In this document: one piece after another, positions 14,201 to 60,584 of the stretch
How the letters are laid out: the number at the start of each line of letters is the position of its first letter
Numbering within the stretch: the first letter of the stretch is position 1
Assembly (NCBI GenBank): GCA_949746255.1
Contig: CATKAP010000212.1
Location: 1,689 to 65,688 of the forward strand
From: an uncultured bacterium
GTDB taxonomy: Bacteria > Bacillota > Clostridia > Christensenellales > Borkfalkiaceae
DNA: 64,000 bases
Direction: 5' to 3'
Notes under the pieces: model-generated
Told to the model about the DNA's origin: nothing
Seen by the model: only the letters and a program-made list of their open reading frames with translations
Databases searched by the model: none
Made by a program: the position numbers and the translations under genes

Positions 14201-17200
14201 TACTTCGGTACCCGTAAAGCTTACTTTGGACATATCGTACGCGCCCTCTACGACTTTAAGCACGCCGCATTTGCCGCTATCCTCGCCCAGTGAGTAGCCT
14301 CCGGTAAAATGTACGTTATAATTCGCCGCGTTCGACGAGCGGAATTCTCCGCGTATAGGATAAGTTCCCGTTCCCGTTACCGCAGGGCACGTAAACGTAA
14401 GCGTATACGATTCGCCCGCAACAAATTCGAGACTGCCGTCCACGTAAGTCCATCTTACTCCGCTTACGTCAATGCTTTCAGCAAGCTGAGCGGTCATATC
14501 TCCTATATTGATATATACGTCTCTTCTTTCAATAGTAAAAGTTTTTGTTGTTTCGCCCGTAAGATGATAATTACTGCCGAGCGAAGCCGTGGCGACATAA
14601 CTGCCCACGTTCACCGCTTTGCCGTTTACCGTAACTTCGAGTTTAACGGGCGCATAAGAATTTTCGCTTTCATAGAAATAAGCTTCGGGCGCCTGTTCTC
14701 CGCCGTTATAATACAGAGGCGATTGCGACCAGATTATCACTCCCGCTTTGGGTTTGGGGTTAACGGTGAATTTAACAGTGAGACCATTGACGGGCAGCGT
14801 ATAGTTTGAATTGCTCACGCCGGTGGCTCTTGCAACGTAATCTATACCCGCGTTTATTTGTCCGCCTTCAACCGTTACGAAAACGGTGTTGCCGTTTACT
14901 GCGTTTACAACGCTTGCATAAGGCGTATGAACTTCGCCTTCGGAATAAGTATAAATCAAATCCTGCGCCGTTTTTCCGCCGTCGTTATACCAAACCACTT
15001 CGATTACCCGCGGTTTGACGTTAAGCGTGCCGGCAATGTAGGTTATATCATAGTTTTCCGTCGCCGCGCCGGAAAGACCGCTCGCCTCTATAGCGTTGGC
15101 ATACAGACCCACGCTGCCGAATATTGCGTAAATACCGGCGTTGACTCTTATATTAAGGGTTCCGAGCGAACTTACGGTATCGCCGCTTGCAAGTCCGCTG
15201 AACGTAGCGGTATACGCTCCGTCCGCGGGGTTATCGCCGTAAATTATCGTTTTGTCATCGGCCGTTACTTTAAGCGGTTTCTTGCTGATTACAAGAGTTG
15301 CCGTCATAGGCGCTACGGGCGCGTAGTTGTCGTCTGTTTCGAAAGTAGCCGTTACCGTATAAACGCCTGCGTTTTTAACGCCGTCCGCACTGATTGCAAC
15401 GCCGCCTTTTTTATATTCGTAAGTAACGCTTGTAATGCCTTCGGCAGCGCCTGAAACCTGCAATTTGTGGATATTTCCGTCGTAGACTACGGTTTTATCA
15501 TTGAATTCAACATCCGAAACTTCCGCAGACTGTTTGGTTATTTCCAAAGTCGCGGTAAGATAAGAAACTTCCGAGCCGTCCTTCACTAATTTATAATTAT
15601 CGCCGTCCGCCGCGTCCGCAAAAGCAAACGTAGCTTTAACGGTATATACGCCCACGCCGCTTACTCCGTTCGCTCCGTAAACCAAGCCGTCTTTCTCATA
15701 CGAGTAAACGACTTTTAACTTGTCGGGCAATGTTCCGCTTATAAACAATTTGTGAGTATTGCCGTCAAAAGCAGCCGTACCGTCCGGCAAAGAAATTCCG
15801 TCAAGCGAAAGTTCGGCTTTCTCAATAATAAGATTAACGGTAATGTCCGCTATCGCGTTATAATTGCCGTTTACGTTAAATTTAGCCGTAACCGTATGAT
15901 TGCCGGCATTGGAAACGCCGTTCGCCGCGGCTCCGTCGTAGAAATACACAACTTCAACGCCGTCGGGTTTTCCGCCTATCGCCACTCCGTCAAGCGCCGC
16001 GCCGGACCAATCAACCGAAAGAGTAAATTGGTTGCCGGTATAAGTATGCGTTGCGCCTGTAAATTCAAATCCGCTTAAAGTTGCGCGCTCGATTGTAAAA
16101 GTAAATTCTCGCGTATCGCCGCCCTGCATGTCAGACCAAATGAAATTGGGAGAAACGACTACTTTTACTTTGTATTCGCCGGCGTTAACCGGAATGTGTT
16201 TGCCGCCTATTTCTACAAGAGAACCTCCGTTCAACGCTTCGAACGTAAGCGTATAGTTAACGCCGTCGTCCTCGAGCGTGCCCCAAGTTTGACTTGAAGT
16301 ATCCAAAAGCTCCTGCAAAGAAGGAAGTTTAGGCGTGCCGTCGAAAACCTGAGTAAGGCTGTCGGTATCAATTCTTACCGAAGTATTTTCGGTAATTATA
16401 TTAAACTGGGTAAACGTGACGGAAGGTAAAGCATAGTTGCCGTTTTCGTTATACAAAACGGTAGCTATTTCAACCTGATAAGGTCCGGGAACAACCGCGG
16501 AACTTACGCCTTTAAGCCTTGTAACGAGTTCGACGCGGTCGCCGTCCGCAAGATTAGCCACGGACGCGGTGGGAACATAGTTTCTGCCGTCGTAAACGTG
16601 TTCCAATTCGCCCCACTCTATCAATATTTCACGCGCTTTGATTCTTACGCCGCCCAAAGTTATTTTAACGCCGTTTTCGGGTAAAACATAGTTGCCGGAC
16701 ATAGCGCCGCCGAGCGCCGTAACGGTAACCGTAACCGTTCTGGAACCCGTATTTTTATTATCAAACACTCCGGTAGCGGTTTGAACCACAAGGTCCGAAC
16801 CGTCCATATTACCGGAAATTATTGCGGAATCGAAATGTAAACCCGCAGCTTCCGCGTTCTCGCCGTTTTCTTTAACGGCGTTTTCGTATCCTAAAGTTCC
16901 GTCGTACACTTTATCGTCCGCGGTAATTCCGCTTACGGAAGTTATGCGTTTGGGATTTATGACAAAGTTAACGCTGACAGTACCCGAATAATTGCCTTTT
17001 GCCGTTATCGTTACCGTCGCAGTACCCGCGTTTCTGTTATCCGAATAAGAATAATCGAAGTCCGTACCTTTTACAAGCGTTACGTTAGAACTTCCGAAAA
17101 TCGTTTTAACCGCGGGTTCGGGGGTAAATTGATTGCCGTTGAACGTAACCGCGGCAATATCCGCCACGGTAACAGCGTCTTCTTCGTCGATTTGTTTGGA

Positions 17201-20200
17201 AATAATGTTGTATTCAACCGTTCTTTCGCCCGTATAATTTCCTTTACCTGTAATTATAACGGTAATTTTGCCAACGTTTTTGAAATCCGTCGCAGGGTTT
17301 CCGTCGGAATTATTATACACGACGGTATAATCGGTGCCGACCGCAAGGTCTGCGTTGCCGATTACGGTATCCGTAACTGTCGGCGATAATTTCCAATCCT
17401 TGTTAGCAAAAATCTGATCCGCGATATCCGTTACGGTTACAGAACCGTCGGCAATATCTTTTTGCTCTATGGTATATAAAATCTGGAAGCTTCCGGAATA
17501 GTTCCCCTTGCCTTTTACCGTAATTACCGCCGATTTTGTAGCAAAAATATTGTTGCTGTAAACAAATTCATAGTCGTTAACCGTCATATCTTTGCCGTTA
17601 TTCGTGGCGACGGTATCGTGAATCGCGGGGGTGGGAGTCTTAGCCGTGCCGTCGTATATCAACTGGGGTATTCCGTCGTAAGTAATGTCGGGAATGGCGT
17701 TTGCGCCCGTTCCCATACTCTTAGGCGTTACGGTAGGCTGCGCGGGAATTATAACAGGGTCGTAATTGGCGGCCTTAGCCATAAAGTAATAAGTCTTGGT
17801 ATCAGAAACTTCGCACACTTCGGCAAGATACGGTCCGTCGGCAGAATAGAATCTGGTCCAACCTTCGTCGTTTTTGCCTATGTTTTTATCGCTCCAATAC
17901 CACTCAACCTCGGTACCTTCGGTAACGCTCGCTTCGATTTTGGTTAAAAGTTTATGTCTTTTGCCGTCGTATACGCCCACGTAAGCTGTTACCGCGGCAA
18001 CCAAAACGGCGTCTGAAATCATAAAGCCTATCGTAATCTGCTTTTTATCGACGTCCGTAGCCGAAGTAATTTCGTAATTCTTTGCGTATTCGTCTTTTAA
18101 TACGGCGGTAGCGGTATAATCGCCGGTATCGGACGCCGCGCCGGAATAAGTAAACATATCCGCATGATTAGCGGGCAATCCCGCCGTTGCGGTAGTGGTG
18201 ACGCTCTTAATTTTGGGCTGTTTCTCGTTTCCGTCGTATACGTAACTTACGTTATCCCACAAATAAGAAGTAATTTGCGCTTTCTGAATAATAAAATTCG
18301 CAGAAATTGTGGTTGTTCCGTCAAAGTTGCCTTTACCCGTAAGCGTAATGGTCGCCGTGCCCGCGTTTACGTTATTAGTATAAGCCGCCGTAAACGCAAT
18401 ATCTTTTACAAGCTCCTGGTTGTCTTCGGGCATATAAGAATTGTTTACGGTAAAGTTGGGAATCTGCGCGGAAGCATTATAAACGTAAGTACCGTTAACC
18501 GTAATATCGGTACCTTCCGAAATATCTCTGGGAATTATAACTATTGTTTTGCTTCCGGTAATCGTGTTATAGTTATCGAAAGTTATAAGGTAGAACACTT
18601 CCTTGTTGGAATTGTATACATTTGCAACTTTCGGCTGGTTTTCCTCGTCGAGAGTATACGAACCTTCGTTAAGACCATACATAACGGTACCCGAATTAGC
18701 AAGAGTATCGCCGCCCGCAAAACCCGAAACCGAAACGTTAATAGTGTGGAAAATACGGTCGTATATTCCGCTGTAGCCTGTGGAAGTATCGGTAAGATCC
18801 GCTTTTTCTATTTCGAACGTCTGGGTTGCCGTACCCGAAAAATTACCTTTGCCGGTAAGCGTGATCGTGGCGGTTCCCGCATTTAAATTATTTGTATATG
18901 CCGCCGTAAAATCATCGTTCATAATAAGCGAAAGATTATCGCCTTTAAGTTGAGAGTTGGTAACCGTAAACGAAGGAATCTGTTCGGAAGCATTGTAAAT
19001 ATACGTACCAGAAACAGTTATAGCCGTTCCGCCTGCAATGCTTCTGGGCGTTATAGTTATGGTTTTACTGCCCGTTATGGTGTTGTAATTATCAAAAGTT
19101 ATCTGATAATATACCGTTTTGCCGCTCTCGGAAACGTCCGTAGCGGTAGGGCACTCTGCAAGGTCGTAAACGCCGCTCGCCGTTCCGTATTTAACGGTAC
19201 CCATAGAAAATTCGTCGCTTCCTCTGAAACCTGCGGCATTTACATTAATTCCGTGAGGTTCGCGGTCGTAAATTCCCGTAAAACTCGTTGAAGAATCATT
19301 CAAATCGGCTTTCTGTATGGTAAAGGTCTGAGTGGTAAGTCCCGTGAAGTTGCCCATACCCATAAGAACCATGGTAGCCGTACCCGCGTTTATGTTATTG
19401 GAATATTCCACGGTAAACGCCGTACCTCTTACGAGCGTTTTATTATCCGCAAGTAAATTGGAATTGGTTACGGTATATGTAGGCGTTATTTCCTTAGAAG
19501 TATAAACGTACTCTCCCGAAACCGAGACCGTGGTTCCGTTTGCGATATTTCTTTGAGTAATCGTAGCCGCTTTGCTGCCCGTTATAGTGTTGTAGTTTGC
19601 AAAAGTAATTTTGTAAAAAATATCCTTACTGTCCGCCACGTTAATTACGGAAGGATGCGTGGATGTGAAAGTTCCGTTTTCCAGAACGCTGTAAGTAATC
19701 GTACCGACGCCTTCAAGCGTGTCGCTCCCGAAAAATCCCGTCACGGAAACGCTTATAGTATGCGCTGTACGGTCGTAAACGCCGTCGTATCCCGTGGATA
19801 TATCGGTAAGCGTAGCTTTTTGTATGGTAAATGTCTGCGTAGCCGTACCCGTGAAATTACCCATGCCGGTAAGAGTAATTGTAGCGGTGCCCGCATTTGT
19901 GTTGTTTGTATATGCGTATGAAAAATCCGTACCCCTCGCAAGATACTTATCCGTGCCTGCAAGAGCCGAATTACTTACGGTATATGTGGGGGTTAACGCG
20001 GTAGAATTGTATACGTATTCTCCCGAAACGGTAATAGTTGTATTGCTTGCTATACTGCGCGGAGTTATAGTAACGGTTTTACTTCCCGCAACGGTATTGT
20101 AGTTATCGAAAGTTACCTGATAATATACCGTTAACACTCCTTCCGAAACGTCGGTTACGGTAGGGCAAACGTCCTGATTGTAAGTTCCGCTTACCGTTCC

Positions 20201-23200
20201 GTATTTTATAGTTCCTTCCGAAGCCAGAGTATCGCTTCCTTTAAAACCGGTTATGTTCAGCGTTATACCGTGCGCCGCGCGGTCGTAAACGACGCTTACG
20301 GCGGCGGTACTGTCGGTAAGAGTTGCTTTCAATATAGTAAACGTTGTAGACGCAGTACCCGTAAAGTTGCCTTTACCGGTAAAGGTTATCGTCGCCGTGC
20401 CCGCGTTTATATTATCGGAATACGTTCTTGTATAGTCGGTATCCAAAGTCAGCGTTTTTGTAGTCGCCGCTATTCCTGAGTTGGAAACCGTAGTCGAGGG
20501 CGTAATAGCGCTTCCCGTATACGTTTGATTTGCAATCGCAGTGAAAGTGGTGCCCGTAGCCAAACTTCTCGGCGATATCGTCACCGTCGCGCCGCCCGTT
20601 ATGGTATTGTAGTTTGTAAAGGTTACCTTATAGTAAATAGTTTTGCTATCCGCAACGTTGGTCACGGTAGGTTTTGTAGAACTGTAAGTTCCGTTTTCCG
20701 CAGTTGAATAAGTTATGGTTCCGGTGGAAATAGTCTGGCTTGCCTTAAATCCCGTCGCCGAAACCGTTATCGTATGGGAAAGCCTGTCATACGTCGTCGA
20801 AACGTCCGCGGTGGTATCGGTAAGAGTAGCTTTTGTTATCGTGAAGTCGGATATACTTGCATAATAAGTTGCCGAACTTGTGGTTGCGCTGCCTAAACAA
20901 TAATTTTTATTTGTAGAAACGGCTTTAACGGAATAAGTTCCCACGTTGGTACCGCCGCCCGACATGGTCAACGAGCATGTGTCGCTGCCTATAAGTCCGC
21001 TCACGGTTGCCGTAGCCTTCTGTGCCGCTCCGCTGTATACTAAAGACTTGTTGCTCCATGTAACGGTCAACTGCTTGGGAAGTATTTTAATATACAGCGC
21101 CTTGTTGCAGCCGCTGCCGTCCGCCCAACAGTAGCCCGAACTCGGGGTAAAAGTTATAGAGTAAGAAGAAATAGATGTCGCAGAAGAAGAACTTATACTG
21201 GTACTGCTGCTAAAGTAAACGTTTATTGCCGTGACCGATCTGGTTGATGTATTATGCGTAATACCCGTAGTTGTGCTTACGCTTGCATGACTTACGGCGT
21301 TATAAGTACCGCCCTGCGCCGAGCCGTTGTATGTAAACGATTTAGTGCTTGAACCTCCGTCCGACCAAGAAGGCGACGACACCGTCATAAGCGTTCCTAT
21401 CTGCACCTCGCCCTGCTTGGAAGTTGCAGTACCGCTGTACAAACTCAAAGAGTAACCGTCGTCCGAACTGAAATATGTTGAAGGCGACGTTGTTCCGCAG
21501 TAAGTTTTATAACCGGTTGTAAATACTCCGCACCCGTCTATACCTATTTTATTGGAATTGGAGGTCAGCGCGCCCGAAACAGTTATATAGTTATAACCTC
21601 CGGTATATATGTTGCTCTTAGTAGTTCCGGAACCTCTGTAATTGTTATAAACGGCGACGTTTCCTTTTATTTTGAAAGTATAAGACGTGTAAATTCCGCC
21701 GCCGTAACCGTTATTAGCGCGGTTGCCGGTTATGGTTCCGCCGTTTATGACTACTGTATTGGATCCGCTCACATAGATTCCGCCGCCGTTATATCCACAG
21801 GTATTACCCGATATAGTTCCTTGAGTGAGCGTAAACGTACCGCCGTTTGTATAAACGCCGCCGCCGTAGCCGTAGGACAAAGTTGTATTATCTTTGATAT
21901 AGGCGCCGCTGCCGTTCATTGTAAAACTGCCGCCTCTCGCCGCGATACCGGCTCCGTAATAAGCGTTGTTGCCGGATATGGTTCCTTGAGTGAGCGTAAA
22001 CGTGCCGCCGTACACATGCACGCCGCCGCCGTGACGGACATACTGCGGCGTTCCGCTAACACATTCGTTGGAAGAAATTAAGGCGCCGCTGCCGTTCATT
22101 GTAAAACTGCCCGAATTTACATGCACGCCGCCGCCGTCGAACCCGGAACTGGTGTTATCTTTAATACTGCCGCCCGTCATGCTGACGGTAGCGCCGTTTA
22201 CGTAAACGCCGCCGCCCCCCTTGGAGACAATGCTGGAGGTTGTATTGTTGGTCACGGTATTGTTTGCAATGCTGCCGCCGGACATGGTGAAAGAACCGCT
22301 TTTGGCATAAACTCCCGCGCCCCCGTTTCTTGCGGTATTATAGCTTACAGAACCAGAACTCAGCTTTACCGTACCGCCGCCTACATATACGCCGCCACCG
22401 CCGTAATATACGGTTGTGCTGGAAGAGCTTGAATTTTTGTCGGTATTATAAGAAATAGTTGTTCCCGCTATATTAACAGTACCGCCCGTAGCCGCGAAAA
22501 CGCCGCCGCCGTACGTAGCGCTGTTGCCGAGAGAAGAACCGCCGATAGTGCCGCCGTTGAGATTTGCAGTTGACGTGCCGCTCGTCTTGTCTACATAAAT
22601 ACCTCCGCCGTTAGGCGCGCTGTTTTTGCTGATATTGCCGCTCGTCATTGTAAAAACAGCTCCCTCGGAGACGCGTACTCCGCCGCCGCTGTTGGATGCA
22701 GTATTATAAGATATTGTCGTACCGGATAATGTGGTTGTGCCAGCTATAGTGTAAACACCGCCTCCGCCGTTGGTAGCGTTGTTTGGCGTTCCGCTTCCGC
22801 CTATAGTACCGCCCGAAAGCGTTACCGCCGTAGTGGAAGTATTCTCGTTAACCACCCCTCCGCCGTATTTTGCGGTATTGGAATAAATTTTTCCGCCCGA
22901 CATAGTAAATTTAGAACCGGATTGATCGCTTACTCCTACTCCGCCGCCATAATACGAATTAATAGTATTGCTATATATATTCCCTCCGGACATATTAAAA
23001 ATACCGCCCCATACGCATACACCGGCACCGGGATATTGCGTAGAAGAGTTTTTATTATTTGCTATATTGCCGGATTGTAATGTAAAAGTTCCCCCTGAAT
23101 AAACGCTTACCCCTCCCGCGCCGGTTGAACTGTATCCGCCTGTTATTTTACCCGCCGCGGAACTCGAAGTATCTTTTACTACAAGCGTGCCGTAAACTGT

Positions 23201-24340
23201 AAGCACCCTGCCGTTACTTATTGTTGACGTAAGCTTTCTATCCAAATTATAACCGTTGAGGTCAATAATCATAGATTTCCCTGCAGGAACGTAGATTGTA
23301 CCGTCAGTAAATCCAACGCCTTCGCCGAAACTGTGAGCATCGTTTCCGGCGTTCCAGTTTCTTGTAAGCTTAAAAGTTTGCGGAGATGAAGCCGAACTTG
23401 CCGTAACTGCGGCGTTCCACGCGTCTACGTACTCTTTGTCATACACAGTATCGTTATACGCTTTGGTTAAGTTGAAGTGGAAAGCGGGACGCATTTTGTC
23501 GCCGTCCGTTACAGAGTATGCTGCAGCGGAACCGCTCGTACCAATCGAATATATTTTACTTTCGTCGCTTGTGCTTCTGTTTCTGATACGCGTCCAACCG
23601 TCGGCTTTATACTGATTACCATTACATTTCCATAAACCCGTAGAGGCGGACGTACCGCATTCCGTTGTGGACGGAAGCCATAATTTATCGCTTTTCCAGG
23701 CCGTTCCCATGTAACTTTCTGTAGAATGCCAGCTTACCGCGCTGGGAGCTACCATATACGCGCCGTAATTTGCAATTAAAGTTTTATAAGCGGTGTGCTG
23801 TTTGGAAGTCCCTGACACAAGCGCCGTCGATGAAGTAGCATAAGAAGAGCCCACAAGTAATGCGCGCCCTTGGCTGTAATTATAATCTGTGCAGGGATAC
23901 GTTCCCGAGTTTGTGGTATAAGTGTTAAAAGAACCGCTAGGCAGTTCCGAAGTAGCTCCGGCAGCCCAAAACGTAACTATAATATTACCGGACGCGTCTT
24001 TTGAAACATACACCGGATTAAAATGCAAACTGTTAACAGTTACGTTAAACGTATTGCTCATAGTAGAGTAAGTTAAAACGCCACCCGTTGCGGACGCAAG
24101 TTTGGAGTTGACCGCGGCAAGCGTGCCCGTTCCGCTTATACGTGAACAAAGATACGTGACGTTCATAAGGCTTCCGGCGGAAGCCAACGCAAAAGAAGTC
24201 CCGTAAGCGTCCGCGTCCGCGATATCTGTGTTATCGTTATTGAAATTAATAAATCCGATACCAAAAATCGAGACCGCGGCAATAACGACCGCCCCCAATA
24301 AAACAATTAGAATTTTCTTTATTTTGGATAACTTTCTCAT
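5225..24340 (-). CDS. Giant cell-surface repeat protein A (6371 aa), putative adhesin
   Basis: This is a 19.1-kb uninterrupted ORF. The ORF track begins at GTG 24346, but ATG 24340 has GGAG 8 nt upstream. The order of elements read from the translation is as follows. First a signal/anchor, then one head module ending RPAFHFNL, then the adaptor KLTRNW...IIDLNGYNLDRKL. About 530 aa of GGGVYV..G.FTM.GG.I..N repeats (parallel beta-helix / Pmp-like) follow. Next come 5 x ~170-aa units and 3 x ~920-aa super-repeats rich in YDG..H and VYG (MBG-like) modules. The protein ends in a C-terminal TM helix (WAIAAIAGGFALMLLLIIILIAV) and an acidic tail. The adhesin role is an inference. Confidence 0.95.
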   Translation of the reverse strand: MRKLSKIKKILIVLLGAVVIAAVSIFGIGFINFNNDNTDIADADAYGTSFALASAGSLMNVTYLCSRISGTGTLAAVNSKLASATGGVLTYSTMSNTFNVTVNSLHFNPVYVSKDASGNIIVTFWAAGATSELPSGSFNTYTTNSGTYPCTDYNYSQGRALLVGSSYATSSTALVSGTSKQHTAYKTLIANYGAYMVAPSAVSWHSTESYMGTAWKSDKLWLPSTTECGTSASTGLWKCNGNQYKADGWTRIRNRSTSDESKIYSIGTSGSAAAYSVTDGDKMRPAFHFNLTKAYNDTVYDKEYVDAWNAAVTASSASSPQTFKLTRNWNAGNDAHSFGEGVGFTDGTIYVPAGKSMIIDLNGYNLDRKLTSTISNGRVLTVYGTLVVKDTSSSAAGKITGGYSSTGAGGVSVYSGGTFTLQSGNIANNKNSSTQYPGAGVCVWGGIFNMSGGNIYSNTINSYYGGGVGVSDQSGSKFTMSGGKIYSNTAKYGGGVVNENTSTTAVTLSGGTIGGSGTPNNATNGGGGVYTIAGTTTLSGTTISYNTASNSGGGVRVSEGAVFTMTSGNISKNSAPNGGGIYVDKTSGTSTANLNGGTIGGSSLGNSATYGGGVFAATGGTVNIAGTTISYNTDKNSSSSSTTVYYGGGGVYVGGGTVKLSSGSVSYNTARNGGAGVYAKSGSFTMSGGSIANNTVTNNTTSSIVSKGGGGVYVNGATVSMTGGSIKDNTSSGFDGGGVHVNSGSFTMNGSGALISSNECVSGTPQYVRHGGGVHVYGGTFTLTQGTISGNNAYYGAGIAARGGSFTMNGSGAYIKDNTTLSYGYGGGVYTNGGTFTLTQGTISGNTCGYNGGGIYVSGSNTVVINGGTITGNRANNGYGGGIYTSYTFKIKGNVAVYNNYRGSGTTKSNIYTGGYNYITVSGALTSNSNKIGIDGCGVFTTGYKTYCGTTSPSTYFSSDDGYSLSLYSGTATSKQGEVQIGTLMTVSSPSWSDGGSSTKSFTYNGSAQGGTYNAVSHASVSTTTGITHNTSTRSVTAINVYFSSSTSISSSSATSISSYSITFTPSSGYCWADGSGCNKALYIKILPKQLTVTWSNKSLVYSGAAQKATATVSGLIGSDTCSLTMSGGGTNVGTYSVKAVSTNKNYCLGSATTSSATYYASISDFTITKATLTDTTADVSTTYDRLSHTITVSATGFKASQTISTGTITYSTAENGTYSSTKPTVTNVADSKTIYYKVTFTNYNTITGGATVTISPRSLATGTTFTAIANQTYTGSAITPSTTVSNSGIAATTKTLTLDTDYTRTYSDNINAGTATITFTGKGNFTGTASTTFTILKATLTDSTAAVSVVYDRAAHGITLNITGFKGSDTLASEGTIKYGTVSGTYNQDVCPTVTDVSEGVLTVYYQVTFDNYNTVAGSKTVTITPRSIASNTTITVSGEYVYNSTALTPTYTVSNSALAGTDKYLARGTDFSYAYTNNTNAGTATITLTGMGNFTGTATQTFTIQKATLTDISTGYDGVYDRTAHTISVSVTGFFGSDTLEGVGTITYSVLENGTFTSTHPSVINVADSKDIFYKITFANYNTITGSKAATITQRNIANGTTVSVSGEYVYTSKEITPTYTVTNSNLLADNKTLVRGTAFTVEYSNNINAGTATMVLMGMGNFTGLTTQTFTIQKADLNDSSTSFTGIYDREPHGINVNAAGFRGSDEFSMGTVKYGTASGVYDLAECPTATDVSESGKTVYYQITFDNYNTITGSKTITITPRSIAGGTAITVSGTYIYNASEQIPSFTVTNSQLKGDNLSLIMNDDFTAAYTNNLNAGTATITLTGKGNFSGTATQTFEIEKADLTDTSTGYSGIYDRIFHTINVSVSGFAGGDTLANSGTVMYGLNEGSYTLDEENQPKVANVYNSNKEVFYLITFDNYNTITGSKTIVIIPRDISEGTDITVNGTYVYNASAQIPNFTVNNSYMPEDNQELVKDIAFTAAYTNNVNAGTATITLTGKGNFDGTTTISANFIIQKAQITSYLWDNVSYVYDGNEKQPKIKSVTTTATAGLPANHADMFTYSGAASDTGDYTATAVLKDEYAKNYEITSATDVDKKQITIGFMISDAVLVAAVTAYVGVYDGKRHKLLTKIEASVTEGTEVEWYWSDKNIGKNDEGWTRFYSADGPYLAEVCEVSDTKTYYFMAKAANYDPVIIPAQPTVTPKSMGTGANAIPDITYDGIPQLIYDGTAKTPTPAIHDTVATNNGKDMTVNDYEFVYSNNIFATKSAVITVKGKGNYSGSFQILYTIEQKDIADGSVTVTDIADQIFANKDWKLSPTVTDTVIGNADLAVGTDYTVVYNNSDGNPATDFKNVGKITVIITGKGNYTGERTVEYNIISKQIDEEDAVTVADIAAVTFNGNQFTPEPAVKTIFGSSNVTLVKGTDFDYSYSDNRNAGTATVTITAKGNYSGTVSVNFVINPKRITSVSGITADDKVYDGTLGYENAVKENGENAEAAGLHFDSAIISGNMDGSDLVVQTATGVFDNKNTGSRTVTVTVTALGGAMSGNYVLPENGVKITLGGVRIKAREILIEWGELEHVYDGRNYVPTASVANLADGDRVELVTRLKGVSSAVVPGPYQVEIATVLYNENGNYALPSVTFTQFNIITENTSVRIDTDSLTQVFDGTPKLPSLQELLDTSSQTWGTLEDDGVNYTLTFEALNGGSLVEIGGKHIPVNAGEYKVKVVVSPNFIWSDMQGGDTREFTFTIERATLSGFEFTGATHTYTGNQFTLSVDWSGAALDGVAIGGKPDGVEVVYFYDGAAANGVSNAGNHTVTAKFNVNGNYNAIADITVNLIIEKAELSLDGISLPDGTAAFDGNTHKLFISGTLPDKLKVVYSYEKDGLVYGANGVSGVGVYTVKATFAFADAADGDNYKLVKDGSEVSYLTATLEITKQSAEVSDVEFNDKTVVYDGNIHKLQVSGAAEGITSVTYEYKKGGVAISADGVKNAGVYTVTATFETDDNYAPVAPMTATLVISKKPLKVTADDKTIIYGDNPADGAYTATFSGLASGDTVSSLGTLNIRVNAGIYAIFGSVGLYANAIEASGLSGAATENYDITYIAGTLNVKPRVIEVVWYNDGGKTAQDLIYTYSEGEVHTPYASVVNAVNGNTVFVTVEGGQINAGIDYVARATGVSNSNYTLPVNGLTVKFTVNPKPKAGVIIWSQSPLYYNGGEQAPEAYFYESENSYAPVKLEVTVNGKAVNVGSYVATASLGSNYHLTGETTKTFTIERRDVYINIGDMTAQLAESIDVSGVRWTYVDGSLEFVAGESYTLTFTCPAVTGTGTYPIRGEFRSSNAANYNVHFTGGYSLGEDSGKCGVLKVVEGAYDMSKVSFTGTEVTYDGNAHVIGVRGLPAGVTATFEYSLNGWSYGANGVTEAGVYTVTVKFTGANENYAQIADMTVTLNIRKAALTVKANDVNIVYGDMPVNGGASFSIEGLENTDALSGTLAFEVDYLQYGNAGKYKIIPSGLTSRNYEIIFVPGTLTVSPREIGAVWYSDDTTSSKDLTYNYDGNSHLPFAVAVGTLRGDIVTFTVTGAKTEAGFGYTAKITGVSNPNYKVKASEASVKFNIIRKNYVIWDNSPLVYNGENQAPAAYYFDDEGVKHDLTVTVNGEHKNAGVEYTATATGVPAGVEGSAVFNYTIEKVKLEITVGGGSLVYGKVESGLAALLAKLKNELIISGGGFLAADVLPVTLNCLISNTSAVGEYVITAVCTNGNYEVVFINGTLTITKADIDVSGVTFSGQSAVYDGKLHSVTANNLPQGISGVIYSYKKDGVEISADGVIDAGSYTVTVKFAADSNHNAVDTELTVNITVTQADLNGKIKFDGKTVTYDGREHYLYVTGSTEGVLGISYKYDDGKGTVTDCAVKAGTYTVTAEITVSDNFKPVGNLTAQLKIEKAALTVTASDGAVVYGQTPSANGYGYSVNGLAASDSVSDILGAFAFSYETIDGVGEYVITISGATSAENYNVVYKSGKLIVTPYVISENDIIWLDKEGGTALGSSGKFEYTYTAGVMMQPHAEVKVLVNGETVTLTVEGGKIAVGYGYEAVITEITGEFAANYALPAESLKVIFDILPRPVSGKIIWDYEPLYYNGEKQIPHAYYFMEEGGTRYELDVTVNGPAINVGSYTATVSLKDTNYTLTGSTSINFNIVPRPVYIVVGDAEIRYGGNVSSDIVSWSYSEGSMRFVNGDAYSINFLFGEINGIGKYPISAQFVCDKSENYNVTFVGSWASAGADNGKFGTLTVIKAVYDMSGVTFAGTETAYDGKTHKIIINGLPEGVTAVCEYVSKGFGYGTNGVKNAGVYTVNITYSGNENYEDIAPVTATLTIRKASLTVKANDGEITYGEEPKNFGITCTGLVAGESAADVLNGELGFTFGYVKGSSVGNYSFTPYGLSAENYEINYRVGTLKVVPKPVTVTWYDDETESSQNFVYYYDGTTSFVPHAVAGGLIEGDSVLLTVSGGQRFAGLGYVAKVTGLSNPNYALPVDGSGQCSFDVMTKPYNIVWDNTPIYYNGEVQMPKAYYFDEEGVRRELVVTVTKESKDVGEYIARAMPRDDDPNKDLISGDSTHGFTILKLKVSVIIDSVADIIYGEQFTLSQNGWSYAAGSAHFAAGDGNPVVLSSVATTVGVAAGRYAITGKCGNSNYEVEFTEGWINVKKASPDLSGVEYGKLTVTYDGLSHALEITGLPSYLKAVCTYIKNGVVMGINGVIDAGEYKVIITFTADSDNYEIPENVEKTFTINKKQSDLSGIRFDDIALDYDGNVKNIYVTGTAEGVANAIYTYYKADGVTELIDGAIDAGVYKVKVEFEFDDNHYGSGEPVWAELTVNKAQLTVTANDGSVVYGQNAVAGGYGYTVEGLAFNDSADDVLGNIVFSFAAYEGAGEHENVIELSGNNYADNYVIEYVFGTLTVTPREITATWQKSETDTDTNLAYTYEEGKVYIPYAVAGNTVNGDTLVLKAEVEREKVGDGYVAVVTGIYLADGVTAAANYKLPAEGIRTVFTVAYENPVEYEIVWNYSTMYYDGTAKKPTASYYDGAVGKFISVKPENIGVYDKDGRATQAVNAGDYVAKIINSDEPFVNADEEFSFSVTPRSVYITIGDISIKFGETPDMSAVSWTYASQSAEHKFLEGDDYDLTFACGEITAAGKYPIACTFKGNLNYDVIFTGGSWASGGSDTGSCGTLTVNKTPYDMSGVVFTGTEVVYDGAEHLITVKGLPNGVTAEVVYVLDGIERAGAVNVGVYGVTVTFVGDGNHEDIPAMYTTLTVKKARLTVTANDSTVVYGDEPVANGVSYNGFVNGESQTTAGIFGGALAFEFGYVAGGNAGSYRLTPKGLTSENYEIIFVPGVLTVEKRTITVHWFNDETMSSDTLKYTQDGLSHLPYAEAGNVISGDRVVLTVSGAQTAAGINYRAEVTAVSNSNYKLPKDGATVGFDIIPSAYVIVWESAPFVYNGEEQKPGAYYFTANGERVELNVSVNGGAAVRAGTYTAVATLAGGNVTLTGESEHEFTIQKRKVSVIINNVTAEYGDTVTFNGWRYADGSQTFVGGEPIFLTSSVTVNSTVGKYAITGICTDSSNYDVTFTNGVYTVEKATVFAPELTDKIYNGQRLTADIPAGKYIVVFNDGGIDAGVYRVVIQLADYVNTRWSDTTLAAITLEFNILQAENEWTTEFEVRGTVVAGSGNMYITRPEPKFGNASAVVIKYFSDSACTKEITEEYVKTEAPQGTYYAQVSLAGTANYGELISVYSFTVTGTLSVKLNWTNKDLVYNGEEQAPVAYVWLNGEQIFLTVSGANKNAGTYTAETDMQAVDGTDLSGYVFDESGESTSIEYVIKPRSLTVHIDDDAESVYGALTIDVNRLNWTVTQGSVMAGDDLDITFTCEVNDVQTAEAGKYPIIPSCGNANYDVTFRGSWGSDDELNGKAATYTVSKANISVSKNSSTWFDEDGVIDRFQNYFITLGEKDESGEYKYLTLKGGKTATVTYSVNIDKYDATLHDGMTIAQIMQMFAVGEQSNAPEIKQAGSWVVYYRIEAESHETKYGIWKVRIEPKDKYVTVTFLKPYTVTYGETVKGKNLLPELLDGGYLEIGGAFKNDAADYEQLKLLARAFAYEDVSETDGFVDVNSDVRKYVIRLSFTEAALQNPMYANLEFKYSATNEPNSDTNLDKYEVNARKITAEWGEKSFEYDGEEHIPSVTLKGFIPVDGVGSTVKLDELKLGQTTQIELANGDIINVTVKIFSGTDAVNAGTFGIKISIDNANYKLDENTDAVTVVITMPPEPEPEGFRMPVWAIAAIAGGFALMLLLIIILIAVKRRGSSVAGGGYIDEDGFTEDYSEELDKE
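7466..15532 (-). repeat. Three tandem super-repeats of about 2.76, 2.77 and 2.54 kb inside protein A
   Basis: Anchor codons for the repeat starts are Q at 15532, 12775 and 10004, and the array ends at 7466. The internal landmark YDMS(K/G)V recurs at about 14235, 11472 and 8658. Copies align over their whole length at roughly half amino-acid identity by eye, so they are not recent duplicates. Confidence 0.8.
18284..20833 (-). repeat. Five tandem 504-522-nt coding units (about 170 aa, two domains each) in protein A
   Basis: The unit-initial Lys codons of K-A-(T/D)-L-(T/N)-D lie at 20833, 20329, 19819, 19312 and 18805. The array ends at 18284. Each unit ends in NAGTATITLTG.GNF.GT. Confidence 0.85.
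21600..23200 (-). other. Beta-helix / Pmp-like Gly-Asn-rich repeat region of protein A (approximate limits)
   Basis: There are more than 20 consecutive 20-30-aa repeats of the form GGGVYV.GG.(F/V)TM.GG.I..N. Confidence 0.6.
23471..24180 (-). other. Head module of protein A (resembles the DUF6273-type domain; approximate limits)
   Basis: The landmarks are VTFWAAG, then YNYSQGRALLVGSSYA, KLWLPSTTECG, WTRIRNRS and RPAFHFNL (23471-23495). This is the same landmark order seen in the C and D head modules. The family name is from memory and was not searched. Confidence 0.5.
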
Positions 24341-24387
24341 AATCACAACTCCGTTAGCGTAAAAATCACGCGCTATTGCTGAATTAA

Positions 24388-24451
24388 TCTGCGCCGTATA
24401 CTGATTACCACATCACTTCACAATTATAAAAAACCGTGTATACGGCGCAGA
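24388..24451. repeat. 14-bp perfect inverted repeat (stem-loop) in the 5' leader of gene A
   Basis: TCTGCGCCGTATAC (24388-24401) and GTATACGGCGCAGA (24438-24451) are exact reverse complements separated by 36 nt. No U-tract follows on the minus strand. Confidence 0.8.
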
Positions 24452-24455
24452 AAAA

Positions 24456-24482
24456 GTACTCCTAATATTGTATTAGGTGTAC
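24456..24482. repeat. Left arm of the 27-nt inverted repeat flanking the gene-A promoter
   Basis: The arm GTACTCCTAATATTGTATTAGGTGTAC matches the reverse complement of 24625-24651 at 24/27 positions. The arm is itself nearly palindromic. Confidence 0.75.
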
Positions 24483-24494
24483 GTTTGTAAAATA

Positions 24495-24523
24495 ATTTTA
24501 CCGCGAATAATTTTTCAAGTCAA
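24495..24523 (-). promoter_or_regulatory. Sigma-70-type promoter directed at giant gene A
   Basis: On the minus strand I read TTGACT (24523-24518), a 17-bp spacer and TAAAAT (24500-24495). An A/T-rich tract lies upstream. The promoter sits inside the 142-bp segment bounded by the 27-nt inverted repeats. Confidence 0.6.
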
Positions 24524-24624
24524 GGGATTTTAGCAAATTTCTATGGAATATGTTGCATTATATGGAAAAATGGCAAAATAATTTCCATAAATAAAGCCCC
24601 GTATACGCCCAAATTGTAAAAATT

Positions 24625-24651
24625 ATACTCCTAATACAATATTCGGAGTAC
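24625..24651. repeat. Right arm of the 27-nt inverted repeat flanking the gene-A promoter
   Basis: The arm is ATACTCCTAATACAATATTCGGAGTAC. The asymmetric centre (CAA here, TTG in the left arm) shows that the two arms are in inverted orientation. Confidence 0.75.
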
Positions 24652-24663
24652 ATTTTCCAATTT

Positions 24664-24706
24664 AAAAAATAAACGGCGGAACAGTCATTTCCGCCGTAAT
24701 TTTTTA
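24664..24706. terminator. Bidirectional intrinsic terminator between the recombinase gene and the promoter segment
   Basis: The stem is ACGGCGGAA (24673-24681) paired with TTCCGCCGT (24689-24697). An A-run lies on the left and a T-run on the right. It lies 79 nt downstream of the recombinase stop. Confidence 0.8.
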
Positions 24707-24784
24707 CATTTTAATTAATTTTGCGACATAGTTTTATCTTTATTTATACCTTTTAAAAGCGAAATTTGTCTCCAAATAAATTTG

Positions 24785-25720
24785 TTAAAACAACATTTTT
24801 CCCAGCTTGTTCATCATTGCCTTTTTATGTTCCTGCATAGAATGCACATACTTATTCAACGTTACGGTAGCCGACTTATGACCCAGAATTTCGGACAGCG
24901 TTTTAACGTCCATTCCGCACTCCAAAGCGCGGGTTGCAAATGTATGCCGCAAGCTGTGAAAACCTTTACGTTCGATATTAAGTCTTTTTAGCAAAAGCTG
25001 AAAACTGCGTTGATACGCCCGCACGTAGAGAGGTTTTCCGCTGTAAGAAGACACCACATAAGGAGGAATACCGCTCTTTTTCATAACTTTTAAAACGGTT
25101 ATCAACTGTTTGGGAACGGGCACGCATCTTTCCGAAGAGTCGGTTTTCGGCGAACAGGTTATCCTTGTAAAATTTCCGTTCCCGTCCTTTCCGTCGCAAC
25201 AGGTTTTTCTTACGTATATAAGTTCTCTACGCAAATCCACGTCGCTCCACTCCAAAGCGAGAAGCTCTCCTATTCTCAGACCCGTATAAAGGCATATAAG
25301 CACGCCGTACATTTTTTTCTTTTTTCCGCTTAAAATCGCCTGTTCTATTTTCTTCTGTTCGGCTTTTGTAAAGCAGGTAATTTGTTTTTCTTTAATTCTC
25401 GGGCGTTTTATGTTAGACGCGGTATATTCGGATATCTGCCCTATCGAATACGCGCATTTTAAAGAATTCTGGATTACGGCAATGTTTAAATTTACCGAAT
25501 TGGGTGCAAGCCCTTCACCCGTCTTTAAATTTCCGCTATAAGAAAGTTCGGTTATAAACCTCTGTAAAATAAGCGGTGTTATTTCCGAAAGTTCCATATC
25601 GCCCAGCTTTTCCGTCACATGACTTGCGACGATTTCGCGGTATCTTTGATACGTTTTTTGTTTGGAGGTCGGCTTGACATAATATTCAAGCCATTCGTTC
25701 AGCCATTCGTTGTACTTCAT
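24785..25720 (-). CDS. Tyrosine site-specific recombinase (phage-integrase family), 311 aa
   Basis: ATG 25720 has GGAGA 6 nt upstream. The catalytic signature is TGLRIGELLAL (Arg), HSLRHTFAT (His-x-x-Arg), LGHKS (His) and LNKYVH (Tyr). The N-terminus is a SAM-like core-binding region. Confidence 0.92.
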   Translation of the reverse strand: MKYNEWLNEWLEYYVKPTSKQKTYQRYREIVASHVTEKLGDMELSEITPLILQRFITELSYSGNLKTGEGLAPNSVNLNIAVIQNSLKCAYSIGQISEYTASNIKRPRIKEKQITCFTKAEQKKIEQAILSGKKKKMYGVLICLYTGLRIGELLALEWSDVDLRRELIYVRKTCCDGKDGNGNFTRITCSPKTDSSERCVPVPKQLITVLKVMKKSGIPPYVVSSYSGKPLYVRAYQRSFQLLLKRLNIERKGFHSLRHTFATRALECGMDVKTLSEILGHKSATVTLNKYVHSMQEHKKAMMNKLGKMLF

Positions 25721-25743
25721 AATTTGTCTCCGATGTAATAATT

Positions 25744-25786
25744 ATAGCCAAAAGTTTATAATTTCAATTTATAAACTTTTGGCTAT
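25744..25786. repeat. 18-bp perfect palindrome 24 nt upstream of the recombinase start codon
   Basis: ATAGCCAAAAGTTTATAA (25744-25761) and TTATAAACTTTTGGCTAT (25769-25786) are exact reverse complements with a 7-nt loop. A T-run follows on the plus strand. Confidence 0.8.
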
Positions 25787-26014
25787 TTTTAATTATAATA
25801 TTATTCGGCGGAACATGAAACCGAAACGCTATTCATTATTATATAATTAGCTCAATTTTCACAAAAATTTTTATGTTATATATGCAATAGTTTTAAGGGT
25901 TTTTCTTTCGCGGCGCACAATTTTATTTCCTTTGATTTTTTATACCCAACTTTTGCCATTTGCATGTATTTTTGGCAAACCTAAGGAATAATATAATTAA
26001 AAAGGAAATTTATT

Positions 26015-26467: not shown

Positions 26468-26502
26468 TTTATTTACATAATCAATAAACCGTTGTTTTGA
26501 AC

Positions 26503-26545
26503 AAAAAAGTTCCCGTTCGCATTATAAGCGAACGGGAACTTTGCA
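26503..26545. terminator. Bidirectional terminator between the convergent XRE and GH10 genes
   Basis: The 12-bp stem is GTTCCCGTTCGC (26509-26520) paired with GCGAACGGGAAC (26528-26539), with loop ATTATAA. It is flanked by an A-run and T-rich sequence. Confidence 0.85.
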
Positions 26546-26549
26546 TATT

Positions 26550-31335: not shown

Positions 31336-31376
31336 TAATAATATCTCCCGCAACCGCTTTACGCGGTTGTTAATAT

Positions 31377-31405: not shown

Positions 31406-31422
31406 TACTTTTTAATCTTTAA

Positions 31423-33504: not shown

Positions 33505-33546
33505 TTTATGACCTCCTTAAAATATTTTTATAATTTTCGGGGCGTT

Positions 33547-60562: not shown

Positions 60563-60584
60563 AATACACACCTCTACTAAGTGA

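What the first reader, a model, noticed from the sequence alone, without database searches (positions are those of the whole stretch)
24456..24651. Candidate invertible promoter (inverton) between a lone tyrosine recombinase and the 19-kb surface-protein gene
Two 27-nt repeats (24456-24482 and 24625-24651) are reverse complements at 24/27 positions and bracket 142 bp. That segment contains a good minus-strand promoter (TTGACT, 17 bp, TAAAAT at 24523-24495) that currently points into giant gene A (ATG 24340). The next gene upstream is a 311-aa tyrosine recombinase with an intact R-HxxR-H-Y signature. A bidirectional terminator (24664-24706) separates it from the switch and would also stop transcription from a flipped promoter. 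I saw no other mobile-element genes nearby. Recombinase plus IR-flanked promoter plus surface-protein gene is the known layout of phase-variable invertons, for example the Mpi-controlled promoters of Bacteroides fragilis and RecV/cwpV in Clostridioides difficile. One caveat is that each arm is itself nearly palindromic, so a direct alignment still gives 21/27. The arms could therefore be paired operator sites, for instance for the adjacent XRE protein.
Basis: partly seen in the sequence, partly recalled or inferred. Interest (0 to 1): 0.82.

Follow-up and report, generated by a model that had tools for sequence, protein, structure and literature searches.

The report
Invertible promoter switch, giant surface gene
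A 196-bp promoter segment, flanked by two recombinase sites and lying next to its own tyrosine recombinase gene, occurs in both orientations in closely related gut bacteria, so it is a real on/off switch for a 6,371-residue surface protein, of an already familiar kind.

Summary
The two 27-nt repeats (24456-24482 and 24625-24651) match at 24/27 positions as reverse complements. The 27-mer occurs nowhere else in the window. Each repeat is a lox-like site: two 12-nt inverted half-sites around an asymmetric 3-nt centre, TTG in one and CAA in the other.

The decisive evidence is comparative. A related genome (GCA_964018035.1, recombinase 96% identical) has colinear flanks, but the segment between the repeats is reverse-complemented. 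The inner half-sites moved with the segment and the outer half-sites stayed. A third strain has the window's orientation.

Among recombinases 57-70% identical from gut Clostridia, 57 of 74 usable loci carry the same module directly after the recombinase gene. The centre trinucleotide differs between loci (17 types), but the partner site always carries its reverse complement. Site spacing is phased at about 10.5 bp. A TTGACT-17-TATAAT promoter sits at a fixed position inside the segment. A second family member also occurs in both orientations.

In the window the promoter faces the giant MBG-repeat surface-protein gene (ON). Recombinase activity, promoter activity and within-population switching are inferred, not shown. 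This is a new member of a known kind, an invertible promoter driven by a tyrosine recombinase.

The parts
24456..24482 (.). Gene-proximal core recombination site (27 bp). Outer half-site 24456-24467 GTACTCCTAATA, asymmetric centre 24468-24470 TTG, inner half-site 24471-24482 TATTAGGTGTAC.
   Evidence: In L002 the inner half-site has moved with the inverted segment while the outer half-site stayed.
24625..24651 (.). Recombinase-proximal core recombination site (27 bp). Inner half-site 24625-24636 ATACTCCTAATA, centre 24637-24639 CAA (reverse complement of TTG), outer half-site 24640-24651 TATTCGGAGTAC.
   Evidence: Centre covariation across the family.
24483..24624 (.). 142-bp invertible interior.
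   Evidence: It aligns in reverse orientation to L002 5063-5269 at 92% identity, while both flanks are colinear.
24495..24523 (-). Sigma-70-type promoter inside the segment: -35 TTGACT (24523-24518), 17-nt spacer, -10 TAAAAT (24500-24495). It currently faces the giant gene.
   Evidence: 10/12 match. The same promoter sits at the same offset, with the -10 ending 38-41 nt from the outer end of one site, in most family switches.
24341..24488 (-). Predicted 5' leader of the ON transcript. It contains the site hairpin followed by U5, a 14-bp perfect stem (24388-24401 with 24438-24451) and the RBS GGAG at 24349-24352.
   Evidence: MFE -48.1 kcal/mol, z = -4.9. No Rfam family matches. The transcription start is inferred.
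5225..24340 (-). Controlled gene: a 6,371-aa protein with an N-terminal signal/anchor, MBG_2/MBG_3 repeats, a C-terminal transmembrane helix and a short charged tail.
24664..24707 (.). Bidirectional intrinsic terminator (stem-loop 24673-24697) between the recombinase gene and the switch.
   Evidence: It is conserved in L002 and L089.
24785..25720 (-). 311-aa tyrosine recombinase, the presumed invertase.
   Evidence: In 57 of 74 family loci, homologues are followed directly by the same kind of switch.

Best explanation
This is a phase-variation switch of the invertible-promoter type. The adjacent 311-aa tyrosine recombinase binds two lox-like 27-bp core sites. Each site has two 12-bp inverted half-sites (family consensus GTWCAYCTATTA) around an asymmetric 3-bp centre. 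The two sites lie in inverted orientation, 169 bp apart start to start. Strand exchange within the central few base pairs, probably the 7-bp TA-TTG-TA, inverts the 142-bp interior, which carries a sigma-70-type promoter.

In the orientation seen in the window, the promoter reads through the gene-proximal site and a structured leader of about 148 nt into the 6,371-aa MBG-repeat surface-protein gene (ON). In the flipped orientation, seen in a sister genome, the promoter reads toward the 3' end of the recombinase gene and meets the bidirectional terminator at 24673-24697 (OFF).

Shown here: the repeats, the natural occurrence of both orientations with breakpoints inside the sites, conservation of the architecture across the family, covariation of the centres, and the fixed promoter position. 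Inferred: catalysis by this recombinase, the exact cleavage positions, promoter activity, and reversible switching within a clonal population.
For: The IR is real and unique in the window.

Window versus L002: flanks are colinear at 94.2% and 96.8% identity, and the interior plus sites align reversed at 92.3%. L002's gene-proximal site equals exactly the product predicted from the window by crossover at the centre. In L002's other site the inner half equals that prediction, and the outer half differs from the window's at two positions. The diagnostic bases place the exchange inside the 14 bp AATATTGTATTAGG. Strain L089 (98.9% identical) has the ON orientation, as in the window.

Family level: 57 of 74 loci with a recombinase 57-70% identical carry two such sites, usually 6-60 nt after the recombinase gene. 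The partner centres are reverse complements in every family pair, with 17 distinct trinucleotides, and this held when detection ignored the centre. Spacing clusters at 127/138/148/159/169/191 bp, a period near 10.5 bp (R = 0.82 versus a random maximum of 0.47). A TTGACT-17-TATAAT promoter sits at a fixed offset inside the segment. The first large downstream ORF lies on the recombinase's strand.

A second member shows both orientations: L010 versus L090-L099, with the interior reversed at 97.7% identity.

The consensus scan found no promoter-like site on the minus strand in the leader between the switch and the ATG, and none on the plus strand of the interior. There is no close relative in the phage or plasmid collections (best about 36% identity), and no mobile-element genes lie nearby.
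Against: No sequencing reads were available, so heterogeneity within one population was not observed. The two orientations come from different assemblies.

The promoter is only a consensus match, and the window's -10 (TAAAAT) is weaker than the family's TATAAT.

The ON transcript must pass the palindromic site, which forms a hairpin followed by UUUUU. This could attenuate expression.

About 85% of the family loci whose switch orientation was called have the promoter facing the recombinase. This is compatible with an OFF-biased switch, but it could mean that orientation has a function of its own, such as antisense control of the recombinase.

Some close homologues (L003, L100-L109) have no adjacent switch.
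Confidence: 0.88

Rival explanations
1. The two palindromes are paired operator sites for a dimeric repressor, for instance the neighbouring XRE protein. They would control the promoter by binding or looping, without DNA rearrangement.
For: Each arm is a near-perfect palindrome, 10-11 of 12 pairs, which is typical of HTH-dimer operators. An XRE gene lies 1.4 kb away. The helically phased spacing would also suit repressor looping.
Against: The segment is physically inverted in L002, with breakpoints inside the palindromes. The central trinucleotide is always reverse-complementary between partners while varying freely between loci, and an operator pair has no need for that. Strain L089 keeps an identical switch but lacks the XRE gene, and the other family loci carry other neighbours. 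The feature that recurs next to the sites, in 57 of 74 loci, is the recombinase.
Confidence: 0.03
2. The orientation difference between strains is a rare, fixed evolutionary inversion, for example by homologous recombination between the short repeats or by an ancient recombinase event. It would not be a switch that flips at appreciable frequency today.
For: Only assembled consensus sequences were compared. Each assembly shows one orientation. Ten Logan contigs of a second family member all show the same orientation.
Against: The longest perfect stretch shared by the arms, about 14-18 nt, is too short for efficient RecA-dependent inversion (general knowledge). The recombinase keeps all catalytic residues. 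Both orientations occur in two separate family members among near-identical sequences and across 39 species-level loci. The conserved centre pairing, helical phasing and promoter position indicate selection on a working recombination substrate.
Confidence: 0.06
3. The recombinase is the integrase of a mobile element, and the palindromes are its attachment or resolution sites (dif-like or att-like). In that case the promoter inside is incidental.
For: The nearest solved structures are the Tn1549 integrase and XerA. NCBIfam gives only weak, below-cutoff matches to XerA/XerC/XerD models. A 1.4-kb recombinase-plus-switch module is 95-97.6% identical in MAGs of different species, with unrelated flanks, so the module itself may move.
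Against: No other mobile-element genes lie in the window. There is no close relative in the phage or plasmid collections. The sites are in inverted orientation 169 bp apart, which gives inversion, not excision. The enclosed sequence is a conserved promoter at a fixed offset.
Confidence: 0.03

Closest known systems
E. coli fimS switch with FimB/FimE (recalled from general knowledge)
   Same: A short invertible segment carries a sigma-70 promoter and is flanked by inverted repeats. It is flipped by adjacent tyrosine recombinases and switches a surface structure on and off.
   Different: fimS is about 314 bp with 9-bp IRs, needs IHF/Lrp, and has two recombinases of about 200 aa. Here there is one 311-aa recombinase with a SAM-like N-domain, 27-bp fully palindromic lox-like core sites and a 142-bp interior. 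The FimB/FimE-type NCBIfam models match only weakly (E about 1e-5, far below cutoff).
Bacteroides invertible promoters (Mpi and Tsr-type recombinases; PhaseFinder surveys, PMC11892184 and its reference 14)
   Same: The layout is recombinase plus IR-flanked promoter plus surface-product genes in a gut bacterium. The OFF orientation is common in reference assemblies.
   Different: Mpi is a serine recombinase acting globally (recalled). The Bacteroides IR and promoter motifs differ. Here the promoter is a Firmicutes-type TTGACT/TATAAT, and the recombinase sits immediately upstream of its own switch.
Clostridioides difficile RecV switches, cwpV and flgB (recalled; PMC13464465 concerns the flg switch)
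   Same: A tyrosine recombinase inverts a segment of about 150-200 bp upstream of a surface-protein or flagellar operon in a member of the Clostridia.
   Different: In cwpV and flgB the promoter lies outside the segment and regulation acts after transcription initiation. RecV is encoded elsewhere and serves several sites (recalled). Here the promoter is inside the segment and the recombinase is adjacent. Sequence relatedness to RecV was not tested.
Cre/loxP and FLP/FRT core sites (recalled)
   Same: The site anatomy matches: two inverted recombinase-binding half-sites around a short asymmetric spacer that sets polarity. The spacer sequence is free but must match between partners, and inverted sites give inversion. 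One recombinase apparently serves switches with different centres (L013, L036, L048), like heterospecific lox variants.
   Different: loxP has 13-bp arms and an 8-bp spacer. Here the arms are 12 bp and only 3 central bp are asymmetric, so the true overlap region probably includes the symmetric TA on each side. No sequence relationship to Cre was shown.
hCom2 'inverton group 139' linked to 'invertase group 35' in Clostridia (PMC11892184)
   Same: A group of Clostridia invertons is statistically linked to an adjacent tyrosine-type recombinase family. Flipping was observed in culture and in mice.
   Different: The two examples quoted are about 255 bp long, longer than the 165-220 bp total length here.

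Membership tests
Invertible promoter (inverton) driven by a tyrosine recombinase | A short DNA segment bounded by inverted repeats | tested here: met
   The arms are 29/32 complementary, 24/27 for the core 27-mers. They are unique in the 64-kb window, with 0 expected by chance.
Invertible promoter (inverton) driven by a tyrosine recombinase | Both orientations of the segment exist in nature, with breakpoints in the repeats | tested here: met
   In the window versus L002, the flanks are colinear and the interior is reversed. The inner half-sites are exchanged as predicted. A second family member, L010 versus L091, shows the same.
Invertible promoter (inverton) driven by a tyrosine recombinase | Both orientations coexist within one population (reversible, high-frequency switching) | not testable with these tools
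   No read data were available. Only consensus assemblies were compared.
Invertible promoter (inverton) driven by a tyrosine recombinase | A promoter lies inside the segment, and in one orientation it faces the regulated gene | tested here: met
   This is a consensus-level test only. TTGACT-17-TAAAAT faces the giant gene. The same element sits at a fixed offset in most family switches. Activity was not measured.
Invertible promoter (inverton) driven by a tyrosine recombinase | A site-specific recombinase with intact catalytic residues is encoded nearby | tested here: met
   Pfam Phage_integrase 4e-27. R149, H255, R258, H281 and Y291 are invariant. The gene ends 133 bp from the switch.
Invertible promoter (inverton) driven by a tyrosine recombinase | Inversion depends on that recombinase | not testable with these tools
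   This needs co-expression or knockout experiments. The only support here is co-occurrence in 57 of 74 loci.
Simple (Cre/FLP-like) tyrosine-recombinase core site | Two inverted binding half-sites around an asymmetric spacer whose sequence must match between partner sites | tested here: met
   Half-site consensus is GTWCAYCTATTA, with C4 100%, A9 98% and T11 97%. There are 17 centre types, always reverse-complementary between partners.
XerC/XerD, integron integrase or FimB/FimE equivalogs (NCBIfam) | Score above the curated family cutoff | tested here: not met
   The best hit is XerA at 103.9 bits against a cutoff of 220. XerC scores 75.7 against 335. The tyrosine-type DNA invertase models score about 23 against about 221.
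Phage or plasmid integrase | Close homologues on phages or plasmids, or mobile-element genes nearby | tested here: not met
   Best identity is about 36% in phages and about 35% in plasmids. The neighbours are glycoside hydrolases, a LytTR two-component system and surface proteins.
C. difficile RecV family | Sequence orthology to RecV and RecV-type inverted repeats | not tested
   No RecV sequence was available in the tools used. The resemblance is recalled, not measured.

The most novel reading that the evidence does not exclude
The window's switch would be one copy of a widespread, self-contained and apparently portable phase-variation cassette of gut Clostridia that has not been described at this level of detail. 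The cassette is one tyrosine recombinase gene followed directly by an invertible promoter of about 110-140 bp between two lox-like sites.

The 3-bp asymmetric core of the sites has diversified into at least 17 variants, so that several switches can coexist, even in tandem and served by one recombinase, without cross-recombination. The spacing of the sites is helically phased. The cassette sits in front of interchangeable cargo: giant adhesins, BspA/LRR surface proteins, restriction-modification systems, BREX/PglZ, GmrSD and STAND defence genes. Near-identical 1.4-kb copies occur in different species.
Probability: 0.4. Interest if true: 0.65.

Novelty: new member of a known kind. Interest (0 to 1): 0.5.

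Why it matters
For this organism, the result means its largest gene, a 19-kb adhesin-like surface protein, is probably expressed in only part of the population. That bears on colonisation, immune recognition and phage adsorption, and it explains why assemblies of the lineage differ at this spot.

More broadly, the family analysis gives a precise and testable site model: 12-3-12 palindromes, a free but matched centre, and 10.5-bp phasing. This model can be used to find such switches in Clostridia genomes without read data. It predicts heterospecific behaviour of centre variants. It also shows that surface proteins and anti-phage defence systems in uncultured gut Clostridia are commonly placed under the same kind of switch.

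Tried and rejected
- The metagenome-contig scan with the IR pattern CCKAATATTGTATTAGGWGTA gave one unrelated chance hit (L004) with no homology to the window.
- A literature search for the half-site strings returned only unrelated primer or barcode matches.
- The supplements of PMC11892184 did not contain the group-139 sequences, so the possible identity with that inverton group could not be checked.
- The idea that the GCCGTATAC-type repeats inside and outside the switch (24425-24444 and 24588-24607) form orientation-dependent alternative hairpins, as in cwpV, was dropped. The inside copy is not conserved even in L002.
- A fifth, accessory half-site, common at offset 15-16 in other family members, is not significant in the window (p = 0.35).
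- Rfam gave nothing in the switch or leader.
- Exact-protein look-ups of the XRE gene found three more assemblies, but their contigs end inside the recombinase gene, before the switch, so they give no orientation.
- P0063-type homologues have no adjacent switch.

Full report
**1. The observation**

The repeat finder reports arms 24450-24481 and 24626-24657, 32 nt, 91% complementary, with 144 nt between them. The idealised 27-mer GTACTCCTAATATTGTATTAGGAGTAC matches only at 24456-24482 (+, 1 mismatch) and 24625-24651 (-, 2 mismatches) in the whole window. None is expected in 100 dinucleotide-preserving shuffles. The inverted alignment of the two 27-mers gives 24/27 and the direct alignment 21/27, because each arm is itself a palindrome.

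Read closely, each arm consists of two 12-nt half-sites in inverted orientation around a 3-nt centre. An odd-length centre cannot be self-complementary. It is TTG at 24468-24470 and CAA at 24637-24639. The centre therefore gives each site a polarity, and the two sites point in opposite directions.

The other features also check out:
- The minus-strand promoter TTGACT-17-TAAAAT (24523-24495) is the best consensus match in the 2-kb region.
- The bidirectional terminator is present, with stem 24673-24697.
- The 311-aa ORF 24785-25720(-) hits Phage_integrase and Phage_int_SAM_3. The catalytic R149, H255, R258, H281 and Y291 are invariant among homologues.
- The 150-aa ORF 26015-26467(+) is an XRE-type protein.
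- The giant ORF starts at ATG 24340, preceded by GGAG. It encodes 6,371 aa with an N-terminal signal/anchor, MBG_2/MBG_3 repeats and a C-terminal transmembrane helix with a short charged tail.
- Its neighbours are GH10 and GH3 glycosidases, Big_2 proteins and a LytTR two-component system. No mobile-element genes were found.

**2. Direct evidence for inversion**

An exact-protein look-up of the recombinase found an assembly identical to the window in the same orientation (L001, GCA_949360765.1). The 96%-identical recombinase P0001 led to L002 (GCA_964018035.1).

In L002 the order GH3, GH10, XRE, recombinase, terminator, switch, giant gene is the same as in the window. BLAST aligns L002 230-5094 colinearly with window 29500-24626 (94.2%) and L002 5239-8936 colinearly with window 24481-20783 (96.8%). 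L002 5063-5269 aligns with window 24450-24657 on the opposite strand at 92.3%.

At base level, the window's recombinase-proximal site is GTACTCCGAATA-TTG-TATTAGGAGTAT and its gene-proximal site is GTACACCTAATA-CAA-TATTAGGAGTAC, both read on the recombinase strand. L002 has GTTCACCGAATA-TTG-TATTAGGTGTAC and ATACTCCTAATA-CAA-TATTAGGAGTAC. The two inner half-sites have changed places and strands together with the interior. The outer half-sites have stayed, including the diagnostic G of CCGAATA. L002's gene-proximal site is exactly the product predicted for a crossover at the centre. The distinguishing bases confine the exchange to the 14 bp AATATTGTATTAGG.

A third strain, L089 (Logan SRR22941782, 98.9% identical), has the window's orientation.

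An assembler has no reason to invert a unique 142-bp segment bounded by imperfect 27-nt repeats, so I take this as a real biological difference.

**3. The family**

The recombinase belongs to a large, well-conserved group: more than 100 clusters at 61-75% identity from gut metagenomes and MAGs. A scan of species-representative genomes with an alignment of 24 members returned 80 loci (L005-L084, 57-70% identity). By their record titles nearly all are Clostridia MAGs, including Christensenellaceae and Oscillospiraceae.

In 57 of the 74 loci with at least 260 bp downstream, a pair of 27-nt palindromic sites follows the recombinase gene, usually beginning 6-60 nt after it. The half-site consensus is GTWCAYCTATTA, with C4 in 100%, A9 in 98% and T11 in 97% of 208 half-sites. 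The window's four half-sites fit it.

Three properties argue that these are working recombination substrates.

- **Centre pairing.** When pairs are detected from the arms only, ignoring the centre, every adjacent family pair has centres that are reverse complements of each other. The only centre-mismatched combinations of family-type sites are in loci that carry more than two such sites (L036, L021). Everything else scored as direct or unrelated is an unrelated palindrome such as a terminator. Among 53 switches there are 17 different centre trinucleotides. Free variation with strict partner matching is what is expected of the overlap region of a simple tyrosine-recombinase site, as in lox and FRT spacers (established knowledge). 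An operator pair has no such requirement.
- **Helical phasing.** Start-to-start spacing falls into classes at 126-128, 137-139, 146-151, 157-159, 169 and 191 bp. This is a period near 10.5 bp (resultant length 0.82 at 10.5 bp; maximum 0.47 in 2000 random sets). The two sites therefore keep a fixed helical phase, as expected if a very short segment has to be looped for synapsis. The window's 169 bp is one of the classes. The loci are phylogenetically related, so the statistic overstates independence, but each class contains diverse sequences.
- **Fixed promoter.** A TTGACT-17-TATAAT promoter, often with TG upstream of the -10, sits at a fixed place inside the segment. The -10 ends 38-41 nt from the outer end of one site in most switches. 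The window's promoter, at 39 nt, occupies the same place.

The first large downstream ORF always lies on the recombinase's strand and starts shortly after the second site. In five loci including the window (six with the weakly called L052), the promoter faces this gene. In the remaining 33 or so of the 39 switches aligned, including L002, it faces the recombinase.

**4. A second natural inversion**

The recombinase P0030 occurs on 24 Logan contigs. The ten loci shown (L090-L099) carry the switch with the promoter facing downstream. The corresponding locus in a mouse-gut MAG (L010) has colinear flanks at 85% and 93% identity, but the switch is reversed at 97.7% identity over 173 bp, again with the inner half-sites exchanged. 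Both orientations therefore occur among close relatives in at least two members of the family.

**5. What the switches control**

Pfam scans of 47 downstream ORFs show two groups:
- Surface proteins: Flg_new/Listeria-Bacteroides repeats, BspA-type LRR_5 and InlB B-repeats.
- Defence genes: ResIII/helicase, MmeI, Eco57I, N6_Mtase, EcoRI methylase, PglZ, GmrSD and STAND NTPases.

The window's cargo, a giant MBG-repeat protein, belongs to the first group.

**6. Mechanism proposed for the window**

The recombinase binds the four half-sites, synapses the two 27-bp sites by looping the 142-bp interior, and exchanges strands within the central region. This is probably the 7-bp TA-TTG-TA, since tyrosine recombinases cut 6-8 bp apart (inference).

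In the present orientation, transcription would start near 24488 and cross the gene-proximal site and a strongly structured leader (MFE -48.1 kcal/mol, z = -4.9; no Rfam match) to reach the ATG at 24340.

The consensus scan found no other promoter-like site on the minus strand in the leader between the switch and the ATG, and none on the plus strand of the interior. Inversion should therefore turn the gene off. The flipped promoter would then run into the terminator at 24673-24697.

The same terminator also insulates the switch from read-through out of the recombinase gene.

Steps shown: the site anatomy, the natural inversion and the conserved architecture. Steps inferred: which enzyme does it, where it cuts, promoter strength, and switching frequency.

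**7. Rival explanations**

- **Operator pair.** This is contradicted by the inversion itself, by the centre covariation, and by strain L089, which keeps the switch but lacks the XRE gene along with about 9.3 kb of neighbouring DNA.
- **Fixed evolutionary inversion.** A rare fixed inversion rather than an active switch cannot be excluded without reads. It is hard to reconcile with two independent cases and the conserved substrate features.
- **Mobile-element integrase.** No close homologues occur in the phage or plasmid collections (best about 36%), no mobile genes lie nearby, and the sites are inverted, which gives inversion rather than excision. However, a 1.4-kb recombinase-plus-switch unit is 95-97.6% identical in MAGs of different species with unrelated flanks. 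The cassette as a whole may therefore be transferred.

**8. Comparison with known systems**

Functionally this works like fimS/FimB-FimE and the Bacteroides invertible promoters, with the promoter inside the segment. It resembles the C. difficile RecV switches only in being a clostridial tyrosine-recombinase inverton. These points are recalled, not tested.

The site anatomy is closest to Cre/loxP and FLP/FRT. The recombinase reaches no curated NCBIfam family cutoff: XerA scores 104 bits against 220, and the FimB/E-type invertase models about 23 against about 221. Its nearest solved structures are the Tn1549 integrase and XerA.

A 2025 survey of a defined gut community links a Clostridia inverton group (139) to an adjacent tyrosine-recombinase group (35) and observed flipping (PMC11892184).

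**9. Verdict**

As a kind of element it is known, so the locus itself is a new member of a known kind.

The family-level picture may not have been described in this form. It comprises lox-like 12-3-12 sites with matched but diversified centres, helical phasing, and a portable recombinase-switch cassette in front of adhesin and defence cargo. This is the most interesting by-product of the analysis. I score interest at 0.5.

Noticed in passing
window 25744-25786 (I2: 25739-25791): A 43-bp hairpin-forming palindrome (18-bp arms, 7-nt loop) lies about 24 nt upstream of the recombinase start codon, in the divergent intergenic region shared with the XRE gene. It could be an operator that sets recombinase expression, and so switching rate. 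It is kept in L002 and in L089, although L089 lacks the XRE gene.
   Followed up: partly
window 25895-35204 versus L089: Strain L089 joins window 25894 directly to 35205. About 9.3 kb carrying the XRE gene, GH10, two GH3 genes and a Big_2 protein is present in the window and absent there, either as an indel or a chimeric contig.
   Followed up: no
window 24341-24488 (-): The predicted leader is unusually structured (z = -4.9). It contains the site hairpin followed by UUUUU, a 14-bp perfect stem (24388-24401 with 24438-24451) and a competing small terminator-like hairpin (24446-24433) followed by U6. This may be a second regulatory layer or a stability element. There is no Rfam match.
   Followed up: partly
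window 5225-24340, 39007-48636, 48815-60598 (all -): Three giant surface-protein genes (6,371, 3,209 and up to about 3,900 aa) lie in one 64-kb window. Only the first has the switch, and the 27-mer motif occurs nowhere else in the window.
   Followed up: partly
L036 4964-5414; L013 976-1150 and 2491-2666; L048 2114-2288 and 2799-2994: Some loci have two switches after one recombinase, in tandem in L036. Each switch has a different centre pair (ACC/GGT and TCA/TGA; AAG/CTT and GCA/TGC; CCA/TGG and GTG/CAC). This suggests that centre diversity keeps the switches from recombining with each other.
   Followed up: partly
L013, L014, L016, L018-L021, L023: A recombinase-plus-switch module of about 1.4 kb is 95-97.6% identical in MAGs assigned to different species and even different phyla by title (Clostridia, Gastranaerophilales, 'Acidiphilium'), with unrelated flanks. 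This means horizontal transfer of the cassette or binning contamination. In this group the two sites differ from each other, although each is internally palindromic in the OFF orientation.
   Followed up: partly
family switches, offset 15-16 nt inside the promoter-distal site (e.g. L018 5060-5072 and 5131-5143): A fifth half-site copy sits at a fixed offset inside the segment in 13-15 of 39 switches. In the L018 group a mirror copy lies outside the same site. These may be accessory recombinase-binding sites that make the two orientations non-equivalent. The feature is not detectable in the window.
   Followed up: partly
family switches, flanks of the 27-mers; window 24451-24455 and 24652-24657: Many sites are flanked by an A-run on one side and a T-run on the other, so the palindrome resembles a bidirectional intrinsic terminator. 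It is unclear how the internal promoter reads through, or whether the tracts serve DNA bending.
   Followed up: no
L005-L084: In most family loci the OFF-oriented promoter points into the 3' end of the recombinase gene with only 6-30 nt in between and no room for a terminator. The OFF state may therefore produce antisense RNA against the recombinase. The window lineage has inserted a terminator at this position.
   Followed up: no
L090-L099: All ten Logan contigs shown that carry P0030, from different runs, end at the same position, 142 nt beyond the switch and inside the downstream helicase-like gene. This is a recurrent assembly break of unknown cause.
   Followed up: no
L003; L100-L109: Some close homologues of the recombinase (75% and 64% identical) have no adjacent switch. 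L003 keeps the GH10-recombinase synteny but is followed by an SDR-like gene. The P0063 loci are followed by a convergent transglutaminase-core gene. These recombinases may act on distant sites.
   Followed up: partly
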